Shown here: one piece after another, positions 47,585 through 64,000 of the stretch
How the letters are laid out: every line of letters begins with the position of its first letter
Position numbering within the stretch: position 1 is the first letter of the stretch
From: Gemmatimonadales bacterium
GTDB lineage: Bacteria > Gemmatimonadota > Gemmatimonadetes > Gemmatimonadales > GWC2-71-9
Reading direction: 5' to 3'
Length of the DNA stretch: 64,000 nt
NCBI GenBank assembly: GCA_052389555.1
Contig: JBQTHV010000172.1
Coordinates: forward strand, 326-64,325
The notes under the pieces: model-generated
What the model saw: only the letters and a program-made list of their open reading frames with translations
Database searches by the model: none
Told to the model about the DNA's origin: nothing
Translations under genes and position numbers: made by a program

Positions 47585-47659
47585 GGTGGTTGTAGCTCAA
47601 CTGGTTAGAGCGCCGGACTGTGGCTCCGGAGGTTGCGGGTTCAAGTCCCGTCAGCCACC
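47585..47659 (+). tRNA. tRNA-His (anticodon GTG)
   Basis: Hand-folded cloverleaf. Extra G-1 opposite C73, acceptor GTGGTTG/CAGCCAC, anticodon loop CTGTGGC, T-loop TTCAAGT. No encoded CCA. Confidence 0.85.
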
Positions 47660-47702
47660 CTGGACGGGTTCTCGCTCCCAACGCGATCGGGGGGGGAGCA
47701 GT

Positions 47703-47775
47703 AGGTCCGTAGCTCAATTGGTAGAGCACCGGTCTCCAAAACCGGGGGTTGGGGGTTCGATTCCCTCCGGGCCTG
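47703..47775 (+). tRNA. tRNA-Trp (anticodon CCA)
   Basis: Acceptor AGGTCCG/CGGGCCT, anticodon stem CCGGT/ACCGG with loop CTCCAAA, T-arm GGGGG-TTCGATT-CCCTC. Confidence 0.85.
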
Positions 47776-47782
47776 CTTACGA

Positions 47783-47899
47783 CAGGAGGTAGTAAGTAGG
47801 AGGTAGTAAGAAGGGACAACGGTGGACACGGCGTGATTCTCGAGGCTGACTAGGGCCTCCGACGTCCCTACTCACTACCTCCTACTTACTACCTCCTAG
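47783..47899. repeat. zipper hairpin built from AGGAGGTAGTAAG words (family 3) inside the tRNA cluster
   Basis: CAGGAGGTAGTAAGTAGGAGGTAGTAAGAAGGGA - about 49 nt - TCCCTACTCACTACCTCCTACTTACTACCTCCTAG, between tRNA-Trp and tRNA-Glu. Confidence 0.9.
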
Positions 47900-47905
47900 C
47901 GAGAT

Positions 47906-47978
47906 GGCGCTATCGTCTAGAGGCCCAGGACACAGCCCTCTCAAGGCTGGAACACGGGTTCGAATCCCGTTAGCGCTA
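47906..47978 (+). tRNA. tRNA-Glu (anticodon CTC)
   Basis: Glu-type D-arm GTCTAGAGGCCCAGGAC, anticodon loop CTCTCAA, T-arm ACGGG-TTCGAAT-CCCGT. The acceptor has a G1-T72 wobble pair. Confidence 0.8.
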
Positions 47979-47992
47979 TGAAGAGAAGAGGA

Positions 47993-48064
47993 GGCCCCAT
48001 CGTCTAACGGTCAGGACACCACTCTTTCAAGGTGGTAATACGGGTTCGATTCCCGTTGGGGTCA
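47993..48064 (+). tRNA. tRNA-Glu (anticodon TTC)
   Basis: Glu-type D-arm GTCTAACGGTCAGGAC, anticodon loop CTTTCAA, T-arm ACGGG-TTCGATT-CCCGT. Confidence 0.8.
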
Positions 48065-48082
48065 TGATCCTGACCGACTCGG

Positions 48083-48155
48083 GCGCCGCTAGCTCAACTG
48101 GCAGAGCAAGTGACTCTTAATCACTAGGTTCGGGGTTCGATTCCCTGGCGGCGCA
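48083..48155 (+). tRNA. tRNA-Lys (anticodon CTT)
   Basis: Acceptor GCGCCGC/GCGGCGC, anticodon stem AGTGA/TCACT with loop CTCTTAA, T-arm CGGGG-TTCGATT-CCCTG. Confidence 0.85.
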
Positions 48156-58586: not shown

Positions 58587-58589
58587 GAG

Positions 58590-58633
58590 CGCGCCCTGAG
58601 GGACTCGAACCCCCAACCCTCAGATCCGAAGTC
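58590..58633 (-). other. 3' part of a tRNA gene (anticodon loop to acceptor end; probably tRNA-Arg TCG) = putative att repeat
   Basis: The minus strand reads CTTCGGA TCTGA GGGTT GGGGG TTCGAGT CCCTC AGGGCGC G, with no matching 5' half upstream. The same GCGCGCCCT string starts again at 63992 at the window edge. Confidence 0.55.
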
Positions 58634-58898
58634 GAGCCGGGTATCGGGTTCCATAGGGCAACTTTACCGCTTTCATAGGGGAAACGCGGGGAGGTTGCCT
58701 TATCCCGCCCCCCGATTGGTCGAAGATTTCCCCCTCAATCTATCCCACAAAATAGCCCACCCTGGAGGCGCTCGCTTCGAGGCCCCCCGGCAGGGGCATG
58801 CAAACGCCCGGGTGGCCGATGCGGGGGGGTGTGGCGGACCAACACCCCGCCCTCCGAAAATTTTTCCGAAGATTTTTTCCTGAAAGGAGTTTGCAGAA

Positions 58899-59421
58899 AT
58901 GCCGGGCAGTCCGAAAAAGAGCGCGAGTCTAGCGAAGCTTCTCCAGGGCATGTTTGAAGAAACCCTGGTGGACTACGCGGAAGGGGACCAACCCCTCCAG
59001 GCGGTGCTCAATAAGCAAGGCATTGTGATGATCGGTTGGCGTGCGTATCTGAAAGAGCATCCTGAGGCCAAAGCGGCTTGGGACGAAGTGAAACGGTATG
59101 GGGCCGAGGCGCTGGCGGAAGCGAGTCTGGGAATCGCGGACGGAGCGAGCAGGGAGAGTACGGCGCATGTGAGCAAGGGCCAAGCTCCAGGTAGCGGTGC
59201 GGCATTGGCTCACTTCCCGCTATGATCCCAAGCAATTCGGGACCAAAGGGGAAGCCGCCGTCAATATCGGGCGGCTCTTTCTAACAGCGGTGAAGGAAGT
59301 GAACGAGGCTGAAACTCGCGAACGGATCGCGGCGATGGAGAGGGAAAAGGCTCACTGGGCTGAGGCGCGGATCGAAGCTCCAGAGGCGGAACCTCCTACT
59401 GTCTCTGAGAGGCCCGGCTAA
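58899..59421 (+). pseudogene. phage terminase small subunit-like gene, frameshifted
   Basis: ORFs 58899..59225 and 59197..59421 join into one family-like sequence (...YGAEALAEASLGIADGA...AHVSK|AKLQVAVRHWLTSRYDPKQFGTKG) if one G of the GGG run at 59177-59179 is removed. AAAGGAG RBS upstream. Confidence 0.6.
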
Positions 59422-59426
59422 GATTC

Positions 59427-61106
<1,680 letters not shown>

Positions 61107-61246
61107 TCAGGGCGGAAAAGTCAGGAGGCGCAAGGGTTCGGGTCGCTAAGGGTCCGGCAAATCCGAAAGCCGCTTTGCAAGTGCTGATTCATCCCCTAGC
61201 TTTCATGTAGCTGGCGATTCCTGCCAGGATTCGTAGCGAAGGAGGG

Positions 61247-61987
61247 ATGGCGATGAGCTTCATGGTTCGAGCCATAGAGGACATCCGGCGTCAGCAAGAG
61301 ATGTTGGGGCATCTTGACCCGATGATCCAGTTCTACCGCGATGAAGCCCAGAGAAGTCGCTTCGAGCAGGAGGAGCGTTGGCTTCGAGATGCCGAGATAA
61401 TGCGGCACGGAGAGCTTCAGGCCGAAATGGCTCGAAAGGCGGAGCTTCAGGCCGAAGCGGCGAGGAGGACGGCTGTTGAGGCCGAAATGATTCGGCAAGC
61501 CCGTCGAGACGCTGAGGTTCAGGAGGCCGTCCGGCTTGAGGCTGAAGCCCGGAGATTCCAAGAACAGATCGAGAGTGAGCGATGGCTAGAACAGGAACGC
61601 CGGGCGGCAGAAGAGGCAAAGCTGAGGGAGCGCATCTTGAATCCGCTCGGGCTCTCCCCAGTCGGGCTGCATGCGCCTAGGCTTGGAGAGACAATCCAGG
61701 AGACACAGAACCAGGGCGGGAAAATCTTCGACACGGAACGGGAGGCGCGAGAAAGAGTCCTGACTGTCTCTACTCCTCCGCAGATACAGATACCTGATTG
61801 GATATTCGAGCGCCACCGGCCTCGCCGGGCTAAGCCAGTGTCGAAACCTATTCCAGCCCCGCAGGTTCAAACTCGGTGGCACCGATTCACTGCATTCGTT
61901 CAGCGCGAAGCGCATGAGCGCGGCGCAGTATGGGCCTTCTTCGGATTCCTACTCACTGCGCTCCTAACGATCATTGCCATGCTGTAG
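61247..61987 (+). CDS. coiled-coil protein with C-terminal transmembrane anchor, unknown function
   Basis: 246 aa. Long E/R/A-rich heptad region (AEMARKAELQAEAARRTAVEAEMIRQARRDAEVQEA...) and a tail anchor AVWAFFGFLLTALLTIIAML. Confidence 0.65.
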   Translation: MAMSFMVRAIEDIRRQQEMLGHLDPMIQFYRDEAQRSRFEQEERWLRDAEIMRHGELQAEMARKAELQAEAARRTAVEAEMIRQARRDAEVQEAVRLEAEARRFQEQIESERWLEQERRAAEEAKLRERILNPLGLSPVGLHAPRLGETIQETQNQGGKIFDTEREARERVLTVSTPPQIQIPDWIFERHRPRRAKPVSKPIPAPQVQTRWHRFTAFVQREAHERGAVWAFFGFLLTALLTIIAML

Positions 61988-61994
61988 GGCGGCC

Positions 61995-62330
61995 ATGACT
62001 TCCCTGACCCCGAGGATTCCGCCAGAGCTGCCTTCGGACGAGCCGGAGGAGGAAGAGCAACTAGATACTAGCCCCTTCTTCGAGTACCTAAAGACCGCCC
62101 AAGGCCACGAGGTCGCTACTCGGCTTCTGACCATCTTGGAGGACGTGAAGAAAGCGGCGCTCTCCCATACCTCGACTCTGGCGAAGCGAGAAACATGGTT
62201 CCATGTCGCCGTATTCTCAGTCGTCATCGGTGCGGCAGTAACCCTTGCGATCCTCGACAAGTTCAGTACGCCAGTAGGGATACTCTTAGGAACGCTCGTG
62301 GGGTACATCTTCGGGAAGAAGTCCGGCTAG
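61995..62330 (+). CDS. small membrane protein (acidic N-terminus, two C-terminal TM helices), unknown function
   Basis: ATG 61995, 8 nt after the upstream stop. WFHVAVFSVVIGAAVTLAIL and VGILLGTLVGYIFG helices. Confidence 0.6.
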   Translation: MTSLTPRIPPELPSDEPEEEEQLDTSPFFEYLKTAQGHEVATRLLTILEDVKKAALSHTSTLAKRETWFHVAVFSVVIGAAVTLAILDKFSTPVGILLGTLVGYIFGKKSG

Positions 62331-62837
62331 ATGTCGGACCTTGGCATTGCCCTCTTGCCGTGGTTCACTGTCTTAGGCCTCGGAACAATCCTCGGCGCTT
62401 TCTTCCAAGCTCGCTTTCAGCAGCGCTCCAAGATTCAGCGGTTGGAGCACGATCTGAAGCAGAAGCGGTATCTCTGCATTCTCATTCTGATGCTTACCAA
62501 GCTCAACCCGGAGATAGGACTGAAGCGCGTTCATGCGATTCGACCTGACCTGAAGTCGCTCATGGACGTTGAGCAGGAGCTACAGACAGAACTGCTGAAT
62601 GGAGTCATCTACGCTGGCAATGAGGTCCTGAAGACTCTCGCTCGCTTTCTGATGGAGCCCGACCAAAGCCGGTACGTCGAAGTCGCCAATGCAATGCGTG
62701 GAGACCTGTGGGGGAAGAAGGCAAGAGTAACCGAAGATTTTCTGGAGCTTGCCGGTCTCTTTCCTGACCTGAAACCTGCGCCTCTTCCTCCTCCAGCAAG
62801 ACGCCGCGGCGTCATCCACCCAGGCATACAGGCTTAG
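62331..62837 (+). CDS. N-terminally anchored membrane protein, unknown function
   Basis: The ATG directly abuts the upstream stop. IALLPWFTVLGLGTILGAFF helix followed by a ~140-aa helical domain. Confidence 0.6.
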   Translation: MSDLGIALLPWFTVLGLGTILGAFFQARFQQRSKIQRLEHDLKQKRYLCILILMLTKLNPEIGLKRVHAIRPDLKSLMDVEQELQTELLNGVIYAGNEVLKTLARFLMEPDQSRYVEVANAMRGDLWGKKARVTEDFLELAGLFPDLKPAPLPPPARRRGVIHPGIQA

Positions 62838-62969
62838 GACCCTCCGAAAGGACGGGTAGATGACGGAGCAGGACCTTGAACTCTACCGCAGGACAAGTAC
62901 GCCTACTTCCTACTTGCGGCTGCGGCATCCGGCATAGCTTTCGCGGTTCGCTTAACATCAGACTCCATC

Positions 62970-63296
62970 TTGCACTGGTCCCTAATCCCCATTGGAGCAG
63001 CAGTCCTCAGTTGGGGTTTGAGCTTCTACCACGGCTGCCAATACCTCCAGTACGTTCAGTCCCAGATGTTTGCCAATGCGAACCTCCTCCTCGCTCAACG
63101 TGGAGAAGGCCCTGTTTCGGGAATGGAGCCTTGGAAGAGGCAGGCAGCCGTAGAGGGCATTAGCGCCGCAATGAAGAAGAATGAGGAGGCGACGAAGAGG
63201 CATTATTCGCGGCAATTTCGCTCCCTGGTTGCTGGTGCAGTTCTATTCGTCGCTTGGCACGGCCTCGCCATAGTCCTCCGGTCACTAGGTAACTGA
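62970..63296 (+). CDS. multi-pass membrane protein, unknown function (5' end possibly frameshifted from ATG 62860)
   Basis: TTG 62970 is the only canonical start. An extra in-frame TM helix (YAYFLLAAAASGIAFAV) lies upstream with no start codon, and an RBS-preceded ATG at 62860 lies in another frame. Confidence 0.55.
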   Translation: MHWSLIPIGAAVLSWGLSFYHGCQYLQYVQSQMFANANLLLAQRGEGPVSGMEPWKRQAAVEGISAAMKKNEEATKRHYSRQFRSLVAGAVLFVAWHGLAIVLRSLGN

Positions 63297-63297
63297 C

Positions 63298-63672
63298 TTA
63301 GCGGCTCGGCTCGATTCCCTTCCGCCAGTAGTCAAGGCGAATCTCAGCGCGGGCGCACTTGTTGGGCTCGGCGCGCTCCGTCTCCAGCTCCGTGATGAGG
63401 CTGGTTAGAGCATCGGTTGTCAGCACTCGCCAAAGCCTGGATGAGTCGGGGTCCTGAATGGTGCCGAGCCGTATTAGCGACTCGGCACGTTTAGTCCTCC
63501 GTGCATACCGCTCCTCGCAGTCCTTTGCGATGGCTGCGGCCTGTGATGAATCAGCGCCGTACCACCAACCAGGGAAGTCACTGTTCGGTGGCGGTGCGGA
63601 TGCGCTTGGCTTGACAACGATCCAGGTCAGAATGAGAAGCCATACGGCTACGCTGGCGACGATTACTCGCAT
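63298..63672 (-). CDS. N-terminally anchored small protein, unknown function
   Basis: 124 aa. MRVIVASVAVWLLILTWIVV anchor followed by a helical soluble part. Confidence 0.55.
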   Translation of the reverse strand: MRVIVASVAVWLLILTWIVVKPSASAPPPNSDFPGWWYGADSSQAAAIAKDCEERYARRTKRAESLIRLGTIQDPDSSRLWRVLTTDALTSLITELETERAEPNKCARAEIRLDYWRKGIEPSR

Positions 63673-63762
63673 GGTTTCGGCTCCTTCTTTGGGCTGCCTG
63701 TTCGCTCACTAGCGACTGGCCGCAGTAAGCGACTAGCAATTGAGGGTCCGCTCGGAAGGAAT

Positions 63763-63942
63763 ATGCGACTTTTGCATAGGCTGTGGGCCTGTCAGCGAAA
63801 GCACCTCCCGGCCCGCGACGTTGCGACAGCGGGCGGCTGGAAGGACACTGCAACCCTTCAGCGGGTCTATGAGGCGGCCGACGTGGAAACTCTAGAGGCC
63901 GTGGTAAACGGTGCTCGGCGGGTGAAGGGAATCGTTCGATGA
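63763..63942 (+). pseudogene. tyrosine recombinase (integrase) C-terminal remnant
   Basis: ...LHRLWACQRKHLPARDVATAGGWKDTATLQRVYEAADVETLEAVV* resembles the box II / catalytic Tyr end of a GGWK-type integrase family. No upstream catalytic domain in any frame. Ends about 50 nt before the tRNA-like sequence at the window edge. Confidence 0.45.
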
Positions 63943-64000
63943 TTTCGAGGGCAATCTATCCCACCAAACTAGCCCAGTCAGAGCTAAGTCAGCGCGCCCT

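What the first reader, a model, noticed from the sequence alone, without database searches (positions are those of the whole stretch)
61247..63672. Operon of four or five small membrane/coiled-coil proteins of unknown function next to a methyltransferase-nuclease gene: candidate novel defence or superinfection-exclusion module
Four tightly packed, co-directional genes are transcribed divergently from the methyltransferase. The gaps between them are 8 nt, 0 nt, and about 20-130 nt depending on the last start.
- 61247..61987: a 246-aa tail-anchored coiled-coil protein.
- 61995..62330: an acidic protein with 2 TM helices.
- 62331..62837: an N-anchored helical protein.
- 62860/62970..63296: a protein with 3 TM helices.

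A convergent N-anchored protein follows at 63298..63672. I recognise no family in any of them. They do not match the layouts of the membrane-effector systems I know (Zorya ZorAB, Kiwa, CBASS/Pycsar TM effectors, retron 2TM).

The setting is typical of phage-defence or exclusion cargo: a mobile island, adjacency to a DNA modification/nuclease gene, and membrane-targeted small proteins. A leftover phage lysis cassette (holin/spanin-like) is the main alternative, but no endolysin is present.
Basis: inference. Interest (0 to 1): 0.75.

Follow-up and report, generated by a model that had tools for sequence, protein, structure and literature searches.

The report
Orphan membrane genes in decaying island
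The small membrane-protein genes are real, but they are a one-off set of cargo genes in a broken mobile element, not a conserved defence system; only one belongs to a wider, still uncharacterised family that travels alone in mobile and variable genome regions.

Summary
The ORFs exist roughly as described. Three are intact and tightly packed: P1 61253-61987, P2 61995-62330, P3 62331-62837. P4 is split by a frameshift (ATG 62860 / frame-0 ORF 62880-63296). P5 (63298-63672) is convergent.

They lie in a 5.4-kb low-GC element in a Gemmatimonadales MAG, integrated at a tRNA-Arg gene and flanked by a direct repeat of at least 29 nt. The element is decaying. The integrase survives only as its last ~59 codons, and a terminase-small-subunit-like gene is frameshifted.

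No known family (Pfam, PHROGs, PADLOC, NCBIfam, PDB) matches P1, P2, P4 or P5, and no relatives were found. The remote-homology search for P2, P4 and P5 was technically weak.

P3 belongs to a real, unnamed family: 175 clusters at 50% identity, in bacteria and archaea, with a confident all-alpha model and no structural match. In 96 loci its relatives never sit with P1, P2, P4 or P5. Their neighbours vary: XRE genes in conjugative elements, HNH nucleases, type I R-M operons, TldD/PmbA.

None of the 80 closest relatives of the methyltransferase has P1-P5 nearby.

A coherent five-gene defence module linked to the methyltransferase is therefore not supported. The best reading is accessory membrane-protein cargo of a mobile element, with P3, perhaps paired with P2, as the only plausibly conserved unit. 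Function is untested.

The parts
58589..58634 (-). Left copy of the att direct repeat: a partial 3' portion of a tRNA-Arg gene, from the anticodon loop to the 3' end. Not an intact tRNA.
   Evidence: The 29-nt string GCGCGCCCTGAGGGACTCGAACCCCCAAC occurs at 58589. Its first 9 nt recur at 63992 and the rest continues in L001. It aligns with tRNA-Arg of L005 from the anticodon loop onward. ARAGORN and Rfam find no intact tRNA here.
58899..59421 (+). Frameshifted terminase-small-subunit-like gene (ORFs 58899-59225 and 59197-59421).
   Evidence: The joined translation hits PF20901 Sf6_terminase (E 4.8e-5, 23.8 bits, cut-off 27) and phrog_1482 terminase small subunit (E 3.9e-5). Both matches span the frame junction. 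Neither half hits alone.
59427..61067 (-). DNA methyltransferase (N6_N4_Mtase) fused to a C-terminal Mrr-like / 'inactive REase' domain.
   Evidence: PF01555 at 1.4e-45, PF22722 NA-iREase1 at 9.9e-9, PF04471 Mrr_cat at 3.8e-7. phrog_67 at 6.8e-62. 478 relatives in GTDB genomes across many phyla. Similar genes occur in Streptomyces and Mycobacterium phages.
61253..61987 (+). P1: 244-aa tail-anchored protein. It has an E/R/A-rich helical region with three 10-residue repeats, a Pro/Gln-rich basic linker and a C-terminal TM helix. ORFan.
   Evidence: Shine-Dalgarno AAGGAGG lies 7 nt upstream. TM at residues 226-244. 30-nt repeats at 61416-61494. The word-index search of 5.8 billion proteins found only itself. 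No family hits.
61995..62330 (+). P2: 111-aa acidic protein (pI 5.3) with a C-terminal two-TM hairpin. Its stop abuts the P3 start. No relatives found.
   Evidence: No hits.
62331..62837 (+). P3: 168-aa basic protein (pI 9.5) with an N-terminal hydrophobic helix and an all-alpha domain predicted to be cytoplasmic. Member of a widespread unnamed family.
   Evidence: 175 cluster representatives at E<=1e-3, best 7e-40. 370 proteins found with the family profile. Conserved motifs. AF2 pLDDT 89.8. No PDB fold match.
62860..63296 (+). P4: disrupted gene for a protein of about 146 aa with three TM helices. ATG 62860 plus Shine-Dalgarno is in one frame; the body (62880-63296) is in another.
   Evidence: Not called by either gene caller. 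The reconstructed protein gives only a sub-threshold full-length hit to PF24838 8xMP (E 0.013, 15.8 bits, cut-off 30).
63298..63672 (-). P5: 124-aa convergent gene with an N-terminal signal-peptide-like helix and a helical domain carrying two Cys. No relatives found.
   Evidence: No hits. The single-sequence AF2 model is weak (pLDDT 68) and has no fold match.
63763..63942 (+). Remnant of a tyrosine integrase gene: the last ~59 codons only.
   Evidence: Window 63778-63924 is 57% identical to residues 392-440 of the 447-aa integrase of L005. Nothing upstream matches.
63992..64000 (-). Start of the right copy of the att direct repeat, which is the 3' end of the tRNA gene and runs off the window.
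   Evidence: L001 is identical to the window over 5397 nt and extends 20 nt further, showing ...GCGCGCCCTGAGGGACTCGAACCCCCAAC.

Best explanation
Window 58.6-64.0 kb is the remnant of a small phage- or satellite-like integrative element inserted in a tRNA-Arg gene of a Gemmatimonadales bacterium.

P1-P5 are accessory cargo genes of that element. They are not a conserved multi-gene system and are not functionally tied to the methyltransferase.

Four of them (P1, P2, P4, P5) are lineage-specific ORFans. P4 is already inactivated by a frameshift.

The only conserved unit is P3. It belongs to an unnamed family of proteins of about 145 aa with an N-terminal membrane helix and a cytoplasmic all-alpha domain. 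Family members occur as single genes in variable and mobile regions.

Most likely mechanism (inferred, not shown): P3 is a self-contained, membrane-anchored, cytoplasm-facing effector of the toxin, abortive-infection or exclusion type that benefits the mobile element. The abutting acidic membrane protein P2 may be its local partner or neutraliser. P1 and P5 are unrelated cargo.
For: **Shown: the island**
- GC drops to 57-58% against about 67% for the rest of the window.
- The island is flanked by a direct repeat of a tRNA-Arg 3' portion.
- Only a C-terminal remnant of the integrase is left. The TerS-like gene is frameshifted.
- A related intact element, tRNA-Arg/integrase/.../methyltransferase, exists in L005.

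**Shown: no conservation of the set**
- No P1-P5 relatives in the 80 closest methyltransferase loci.
- No P1, P2, P4 or P5 relatives in 96 P3-family loci.
- All the 90%-identity clusters found are singletons from this one MAG.
- P1 finds only itself.

**Shown: P3 is a real family**
-.
- Neighbours of 62 non-redundant relatives are heterogeneous. They include:
  - an XRE HTH gene abutting upstream, between a primase and a TrwC relaxase (L156);
  - HNH endonucleases;
  - a position between hsdM and hsdS (L139);
  - RhuM;
  - TldD/PmbA.

**Inferred**
- The P3 soluble domain is cytoplasmic: 0 K/R before the helix and 6 K/R in the 20 residues after it.
- P2 and P3 may form a pair: TAGATG junction, pI 5.3 against 9.5.
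Against: - No functional data of any kind exist.
- P2, P4 and P5 never had a valid deep homology search. The concatenated query failed to find even its own components. Their ORFan status rests on library scans, tblastn against phages and plasmids, and pattern scans that detect only close relatives.
- P1-P4 are tightly packed and co-directional with good Shine-Dalgarno sites at P1 and P4, which fits a real operon.
- Many P3 relatives sit among housekeeping genes (TldD/PmbA, thiolase, ThiC), so the family need not be mobile-element or defence related.
- Only about 10-20% of immediate neighbours carry mobile-element or R-M domains, and no background rate was computed.
- P2 has no DNA-binding or known antitoxin domain.
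Confidence: 0.5

Rival explanations
1. One reading: P1-P4, with or without P5, form one novel multi-component membrane defence or superinfection-exclusion system, possibly working with the methyltransferase-nuclease.
For: Tight co-directional packing with gaps of 7, 0 and 22 nt, divergent from the methyltransferase. All are membrane proteins with cytoplasm-facing domains. Mobile-island setting. No known family matches.
Against: The set is not found together anywhere else. None of P1-P5 appears in the 80 closest methyltransferase loci, and none of P1, P2, P4 or P5 appears in 96 P3-family loci. P3 relatives are solitary. P4 is frameshifted. The nuclease-like domain of the methyltransferase best matches a Pfam family annotated as an inactive REase.
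Confidence: 0.1
2. A leftover phage lysis cassette: P2 or P4 as holin/antiholin, P3 as an i-spanin-like protein, P5 as a periplasmic partner.
For: The element is phage-related, with a TerS-like gene. The proteins are small and membrane-bound, with 1-3 TM helices.
Against: No endolysin and no holin or spanin PHROG/Pfam match. Charge distribution predicts that the P3 soluble domain is cytoplasmic. P3 relatives occur in archaea, in conjugative elements and inside housekeeping operons. No co-directional lipobox ORF exists for an o-spanin.
Confidence: 0.07
3. P2-P3 is a toxin-antitoxin-like addiction or abortive-infection pair: a basic membrane-anchored toxin (P3) neutralised by an acidic membrane partner (P2). 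The rest is unrelated cargo.
For: Abutting genes (TAGATG) with pI 5.3 and 9.5. In other loci P3 relatives are translationally coupled (gap 0 to -4) to XRE HTH genes (L117, L156, L160). Others sit next to an addiction-module antidote gene, a DUF2442 gene, or in regions rich in TA-type small genes.
Against: Many relatives have no coupled upstream gene. P2 has no relatives or antitoxin fold. Upstream partners also include enzymes (ICMT, HsdM, HNH), which argues for plain adjacency.
Confidence: 0.15
4. The cluster is functionless: decaying or never-functional ORFs in a dead element.
For: Three of about nine island genes are visibly broken: integrase, TerS-like gene and P4. Four of the five proteins have no detectable relatives.
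Against: P1, P2, P3 and P5 are intact with coding-type codon-position GC. P3 keeps all invariant family residues. The Shine-Dalgarno site and translational coupling are preserved.
Confidence: 0.15

Closest known systems
Prophage and mobile-element 'moron' or superinfection-exclusion membrane proteins (for example P22 SieA/SieB, T4 Imm, conjugative entry-exclusion proteins). Named from my own knowledge.
   Same: Small inner-membrane proteins carried as non-essential cargo of integrative elements near att/int. They are fast-evolving and often ORFans.
   Different: No sequence or structural similarity to any of them was found. P3 is well conserved across phyla and domains, unlike partner-specific exclusion proteins. 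No phenotype is known.
Phage holin / spanin lysis cassettes
   Same: A cluster of small proteins with 1-3 TM helices in a phage-derived element.
   Different: No endolysin, no family match, no o-spanin, and the P3 domain is predicted to be cytoplasmic.
Csx28 (PADLOC 'tm_HEPN'), the membrane accessory protein of type VI-B CRISPR
   Same: Architecture of P3: one N-terminal TM helix plus an all-alpha cytoplasmic domain of about 120 aa. Three of 67 family members give weak hits (best E 0.004).
   Different: No Csx28 match in the PDB fold search or the PDB profile search. No R-x4-6-H motif after the invariant R123 in the family consensus. No cas13b nearby.
Type II toxin-antitoxin modules
   Same: P2/P3 are abutting genes, one acidic and one basic. 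Some P3 relatives are coupled to XRE or next to antidote-type genes.
   Different: P2 is a membrane protein with no antitoxin domain. Most relatives have no conserved partner.
PF24838 8xMP (octameric membrane protein family)
   Same: The reconstructed P4 aligns over nearly the full model length (12-132 of 136) and has a similar size.
   Different: The score of 15.8 bits is far below the 30-bit cut-off. The query is a hand-repaired frameshifted sequence. TM composition can produce such hits.

Membership tests
Unnamed P3-like family (N-terminal TM helix + all-alpha domain, about 145 aa) | Significant full-length sequence similarity to family members | tested here: met
   phmmer against 1.84 billion representatives: best E 7e-40, 76 hits at <=1e-10. 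The family profile finds 370 proteins.
Unnamed P3-like family (N-terminal TM helix + all-alpha domain, about 145 aa) | Conserved residues and motifs (K43, R46, Y47, R71-P-D73, E87, F106, R123-x-D-L-W) | tested here: met
   All are present in window P3. They appear as invariant or near-invariant columns of A1 and A2.
Conserved multi-gene system (P1-P5 as one unit) | Co-occurrence of two or more of the genes in other genomes | tested here: not met
   tblastn of P1, P2, P4 and P5 against 80 methyltransferase loci and 96 P3-family loci gave nothing at E<0.01.
Known anti-phage defence systems (PADLOC-DB v2) | HMM match of any component | tested here: not met
   No hit for P1, P2, P4 or P5. P3 had only a Cas8a noise hit at E 0.045. 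Family-wide, only 3 of 67 members gave weak tm_HEPN hits.
Phage lysis cassette (holin-endolysin-spanin) | Endolysin gene in the cassette | tested here: not met
   No muralytic domain in any island ORF.
Phage lysis cassette (holin-endolysin-spanin) | Match to a holin or spanin family; i-spanin N-in/C-out with an o-spanin lipoprotein gene embedded or adjacent | tested here: not met
   No PHROG or Pfam lysis family. P3 charge bias predicts C-in, and there is no co-directional lipobox ORF. Topology is predicted, not measured.
Csx28 / tm_HEPN | HEPN R-x4-6-H motif and structural similarity to Csx28 | tested here: not met
   No His follows the invariant R123 (consensus MRKDLWGKK). Csx28 is absent from the Foldseek PDB hits (best E 4.8) and from the PDB profile search.
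PF24838 8xMP | Score at or above the Pfam gathering threshold (30 bits) | tested here: not met
   15.8 bits, E 0.013, on the reconstructed P4.
Type II toxin-antitoxin pair (P2-P3) | Abutting or overlapping two-gene operon with an acidic and a basic partner | tested here: met
   TAGATG junction. pI 5.28 and 9.51.
Type II toxin-antitoxin pair (P2-P3) | Toxicity of one partner and neutralisation by the other; a recognisable antitoxin fold | not testable with these tools
   No antitoxin domain in P2. Toxicity needs an experiment.
tRNA-integrated tyrosine-recombinase element | Direct repeat of the tRNA 3' end at both borders, with an integrase next to the tRNA | tested here: met
   Direct repeat of at least 29 nt. 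The integrase is present only as a C-terminal remnant, 57% identical to the L005 integrase.
Sf6-type terminase small subunit (PF20901) | Score at or above the gathering threshold (27 bits) | tested here: inconclusive
   23.8 bits, E 4.8e-5, on the joined frames. phrog_1482 TerS at E 3.9e-5.

The most novel reading that the evidence does not exclude
P3-like proteins are a new, widespread family (bacteria and archaea, at least 175 clusters at 50% identity) of single-gene, membrane-anchored anti-phage, anti-mobile-element or toxin effectors with an all-alpha fold not seen in the PDB. In this island the acidic membrane protein P2 is its cognate neutraliser or sensor.
Probability: 0.15. Interest if true: 0.6.

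Novelty: new member of a known kind. Interest (0 to 1): 0.3.

Why it matters
As a five-gene system it matters little, because the set appears to be a one-off in a dying element.

The useful by-product is the P3 family. It is conserved, has no Pfam model, and gives a confident structural model with no PDB match. It turns up alone in conjugative elements, inside type I R-M operons, next to HNH nucleases and in regions rich in TA-type small genes of uncultured soil and sediment phyla.

If it proves to be a defence or toxin effector, it would add a single-gene membrane effector class from lineages that current defence catalogues barely sample.

Tried and rejected
**Searches that failed or found nothing**
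- Concatenating P2-P5 into one query for the word-index search returned nothing, not even the component proteins that are in the database. I treat it as void, not as a negative.
- Viral-contig pattern scans for P1, P2, P3, P4, P5 and the P3 profile found no relatives.
- tblastn of P1+P2+P4+P5 and of P3 against GenBank phages and PLSDB plasmids found no match.
- A metagenome pattern scan with P2+P4+P5 found none.
- PDB sequence searches for P2, reconstructed P4, P5 and the P3 profile gave only noise.

**Structure searches**
- Foldseek of the P3 model against the PDB found nothing.
- Against BFVD it gave only two uncharacterised Siphoviridae proteins at E 0.3-0.4.
- The P5 single-sequence model has low confidence and no matches.

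**Leads considered and dropped**
- A weak P4 hit in L002 (E 0.025) lies antisense to a 206-aa ORF that reads like a GNAT acetyltransferase by eye. I rejected it as chance.
- Literature searches for '8xMP' and 'octameric membrane protein' returned nothing relevant.
- The promoter and terminator scan found nothing in the cluster.
- Csx28-like, spanin and holin readings were considered and rejected; see the membership tests.
Full report
**Source and setting**

The exact proteins of this region are deposited only for one MAG, 'Gemmatimonadales bacterium', locus tags ACT4PM_13710-13735, on a 64,442-bp contig. One 5,417-bp Logan contig from SRR34758880 is 100% identical to window 58604-64000.

GC falls from about 0.67 to 0.575-0.62 over the last 6 kb of the window.

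The string GCGCGCCCTGAGGGACTCGAACCCCCAAC occurs at 58589. It begins again at 63992 and runs off the window, with the rest visible in L001.

Its reverse complement aligns with a tRNA-Arg gene of a related locus from the anticodon loop to the 3' end. No intact tRNA is present at the left copy.

The 5.4 kb between the repeats is therefore an element integrated into a tRNA-Arg gene.

**The element is decaying**

- Only 63778-63924 matches an integrase: residues 392-440 of the 447-aa integrase of L005, at 57% identity. Nothing matches upstream of that.
- ORFs 58899-59225 and 59197-59421 look like two halves of one gene. Joined, they hit Sf6-type terminase small subunit models (PF20901, E 4.8e-5; phrog_1482, E 3.9e-5) across the junction. 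Neither half hits alone.
- L005, from a Gemmatimonadaceae MAG, shows what an intact relative looks like: tRNA-Arg, integrase, a 541-aa ORF, small ORFs, then a 67%-identical methyltransferase.

**The observation**

The ORFs are present and have coding-like codon-position GC.

| Gene | Coordinates | Main features |
|---|---|---|
| P1 | 61253-61987 (+) | Shine-Dalgarno AAGGAGG 7 nt upstream; 244 aa; E/R/A-rich helix with three 10-residue repeats; Pro-rich basic linker; TM helix at the very C-terminus |
| P2 | 61995-62330 (+) | Acidic, pI 5.3; C-terminal two-helix hairpin |
| P3 | 62331-62837 (+) | Start abuts the P2 stop; pI 9.5; one N-terminal helix |
| P4 | 62860 / 62880-63296 (+) | Split by a frameshift (below) |
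| P5 | 63298-63672 (-) | Convergent, 1 nt from the P4 stop; begins with a signal-peptide-like segment |

P3 has no K/R before its N-terminal helix and six K/R in the 20 residues after it, so its soluble domain is predicted to be cytoplasmic.

P4 is broken. ATG 62860, with a good Shine-Dalgarno site, reads 25 codons to a stop at 62935-62937. The body of the gene is open in another frame from 62880, encodes a further TM-like helix there, and has no canonical start before TTG 62970. Neither public annotation calls it. The same sequence is in both assemblies, but they probably share reads.

**Known families**

- Pfam, PHROGs, PADLOC and NCBIfam give nothing significant for P1-P5.
- The repaired P4 gives only a sub-threshold, though full-length, hit to PF24838 8xMP: 15.8 bits against a 30-bit cut-off.
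- PDB sequence searches are noise.

**Is the set conserved?**

The methyltransferase has 478 relatives in GTDB genomes from many phyla, up to 71% identical. Similar genes occur in Streptomyces and Mycobacterium phages.

tblastn of P1-P5 against the 80 best methyltransferase loci, with 10-kb flanks, found none of them. The only real hit was the integrase remnant in L005. A weak P4 hit in L002 lies antisense to a 206-aa ORF that reads like a GNAT acetyltransferase by eye.

P1 finds only itself among 5.8 billion cluster representatives. All the 90% clusters found are singletons.

P1, P2, P4 and P5 have no match in GenBank phages or PLSDB plasmids, in IMG/VR pattern scans, or in a JGI metagenome pattern scan (which covered P2, P4 and P5).

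Caveat: the concatenated deep search for P2-P5 did not recover its own components and is void. P2, P4 and P5 therefore lack a proper remote-homology search.

**P3 is different**

An exhaustive phmmer search found 175 cluster representatives at E<=1e-3, with the best at 7e-40. The family profile finds 370 proteins. All those that carry a name are 'hypothetical', apart from one JGI auto-annotation as 'Flp pilus assembly protein TadB', and none has a Pfam domain. The named ones come from Acidobacteriota, Chloroflexota, Omnitrophota, Planctomycetota and a Thaumarchaeota MAG.

Members are about 140-150 aa with a Gly-rich N-terminal helix and these conserved motifs: E-x-K-x-x-R-Y, R-P-D, E-x3-E-x2-N-x2-L-F-A-S-D, M-R-K-D-L-W-G.

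AlphaFold2 with this alignment gives a confident all-alpha model, pLDDT 89.8.
- Foldseek finds nothing in the PDB; the best E is 4.8.
- In BFVD it finds only two uncharacterised Siphoviridae proteins, at E 0.3-0.4 and TM-score up to 0.72.
- Eleven of 67 members weakly hit phrog_26017, of unknown function. Three weakly hit PADLOC tm_HEPN.
- Nothing was found in sequenced plasmids or phages.

**Contexts of P3 relatives**

In 16 loci obtained from exact look-ups and 80 from a metagenome scan, no relative of P1, P2, P4 or P5 is present. Neighbours are heterogeneous:

- In about 7-12 loci the gene follows an XRE HTH gene with a gap of 0 to -4 nt. It sits between a large primase and a TrwC relaxase plus coupling protein, which marks a conjugative element (L156).
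- In 6 loci it is next to an HNH_repeat/HNH endonuclease, including an archaeal integrase island (L096).
- In L139 it sits between hsdM and hsdS. In L132 it sits just before hsdS.
- In L142 and L150, RhuM follows it.
- In 9 Acidobacteria loci it lies between the two TldD/PmbA genes.
- Elsewhere it follows a thiolase or precedes ThiC.
- Other neighbours are DUF2442, PDDEXK_3, PRiA4_ORF3, an addiction-module antidote, GIY-YIG and Replic_Relax.

P3 relatives therefore behave as solitary accessory genes, often in variable or mobile regions, with no fixed partner.

**Interpretation**

The five-gene module is not supported. The best reading is cargo of a defunct integrative element, with P3 as the only conserved functional unit.

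Its architecture (N-out/C-in anchor, conserved charged residues in a cytoplasmic helical domain) and its frequent mobile-element, R-M and TA-type neighbourhoods make a self-contained toxin, abortive-infection or exclusion-type effector the most likely role.

The abutting acidic P2 is a possible local partner. All of this is inference.

A lysis cassette is unlikely. There is no endolysin, no lysis family match and no o-spanin candidate; the P3 domain is predicted to be cytoplasmic; and P3 has archaeal and conjugative-element relatives.

The nuclease-like domain of the methyltransferase best matches an 'inactive REase' Pfam family. By inspection it carries S-V-K where Mrr-type enzymes have (Q/E)-x-K, and this is conserved in L002 and L005. 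It is more likely an orphan or anti-restriction methylase than half of a defence system.

**Verdict**

- Observation: partly confirmed.
- Interpretation: partly supported. The genes are novel and sit on a mobile element, but they are not a conserved module.
- Overall interest is low to moderate, and it comes mainly from the uncharacterised P3 family.

Noticed in passing
window 59427-61067 (C-terminal ~150 aa): The restriction-endonuclease-like domain of the methyltransferase carries ...ISVKAGK... where Mrr-type nucleases have (Q/E)-x-K. The same S-V-K is kept in homologues from L002 and L005. Pfam's best match is the 'inactive REase' family NA-iREase1. The gene is probably an orphan or anti-restriction methylase rather than a restriction enzyme fusion. 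Close relatives span more than 10 phyla and occur in Streptomyces and Mycobacterium phages.
   Followed up: partly
window 58715-58752 and 63931-63968: A 38-nt direct repeat (76% identical, core CAATCTATCCCAC) lies just inside each end of the island. These may be arm-type integrase binding sites.
   Followed up: no
window 61416-61494: Three tandem 30-nt repeats inside P1 encode 10-residue repeats (ELQAEMARKA / ELQAEAARRT / AVEAEMIRQA) within the charged helical region.
   Followed up: no
window 63294-63300: The stop codons of convergent P4 and P5 are separated by a single base, with no terminator-like hairpin. Transcripts of the two strands would overlap.
   Followed up: no
L139 1096-4316; L132 2022-3140: A P3-family gene is inserted between hsdM and hsdS of a type I R-M operon (gaps 21 and -4 nt). 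In L132 it sits directly before hsdS. From my own knowledge, this position is often occupied by accessory defence or abortive-infection genes.
   Followed up: partly
L091/L092/L141/L143/L144/L163 (about 6001-6441 in L091): In several Acidobacteria contigs a P3-family gene sits co-directionally between the two TldD/PmbA metallopeptidase genes (gaps 73 and 31 nt). This is a housekeeping-looking context, conserved across loci whose flanking genes are only about 50-85% identical.
   Followed up: partly
L005 4632-11647: An apparently intact relative of the island: tRNA-Arg(ACG), a 447-aa integrase, a 155-aa ORF, a 541-aa ORF, small ORFs, a 275-aa ORF, then a 67%-identical methyltransferase. None of its non-integrase, non-methyltransferase genes has a counterpart in the window.
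   Followed up: partly
L003 11638-12741: Directly downstream of a 71%-identical methyltransferase in a Gemmatimonadaceae MAG lie a 208-aa ORF with a C-terminal TM helix and a 155-aa ORF with two TM helices. The arrangement is analogous to P1/P2, but there is no sequence similarity.
   Followed up: no
window 47586-48155: A cluster of five tRNA genes on the plus strand (Rfam RF00005, 61-70 bits).
   Followed up: no
tool behaviour: A concatenated 511-aa query to the word-index protein search hit the 8000-candidate level and returned no match, not even to its own component proteins, which are in the database. Negative results from such queries should not be trusted.
   Followed up: yes
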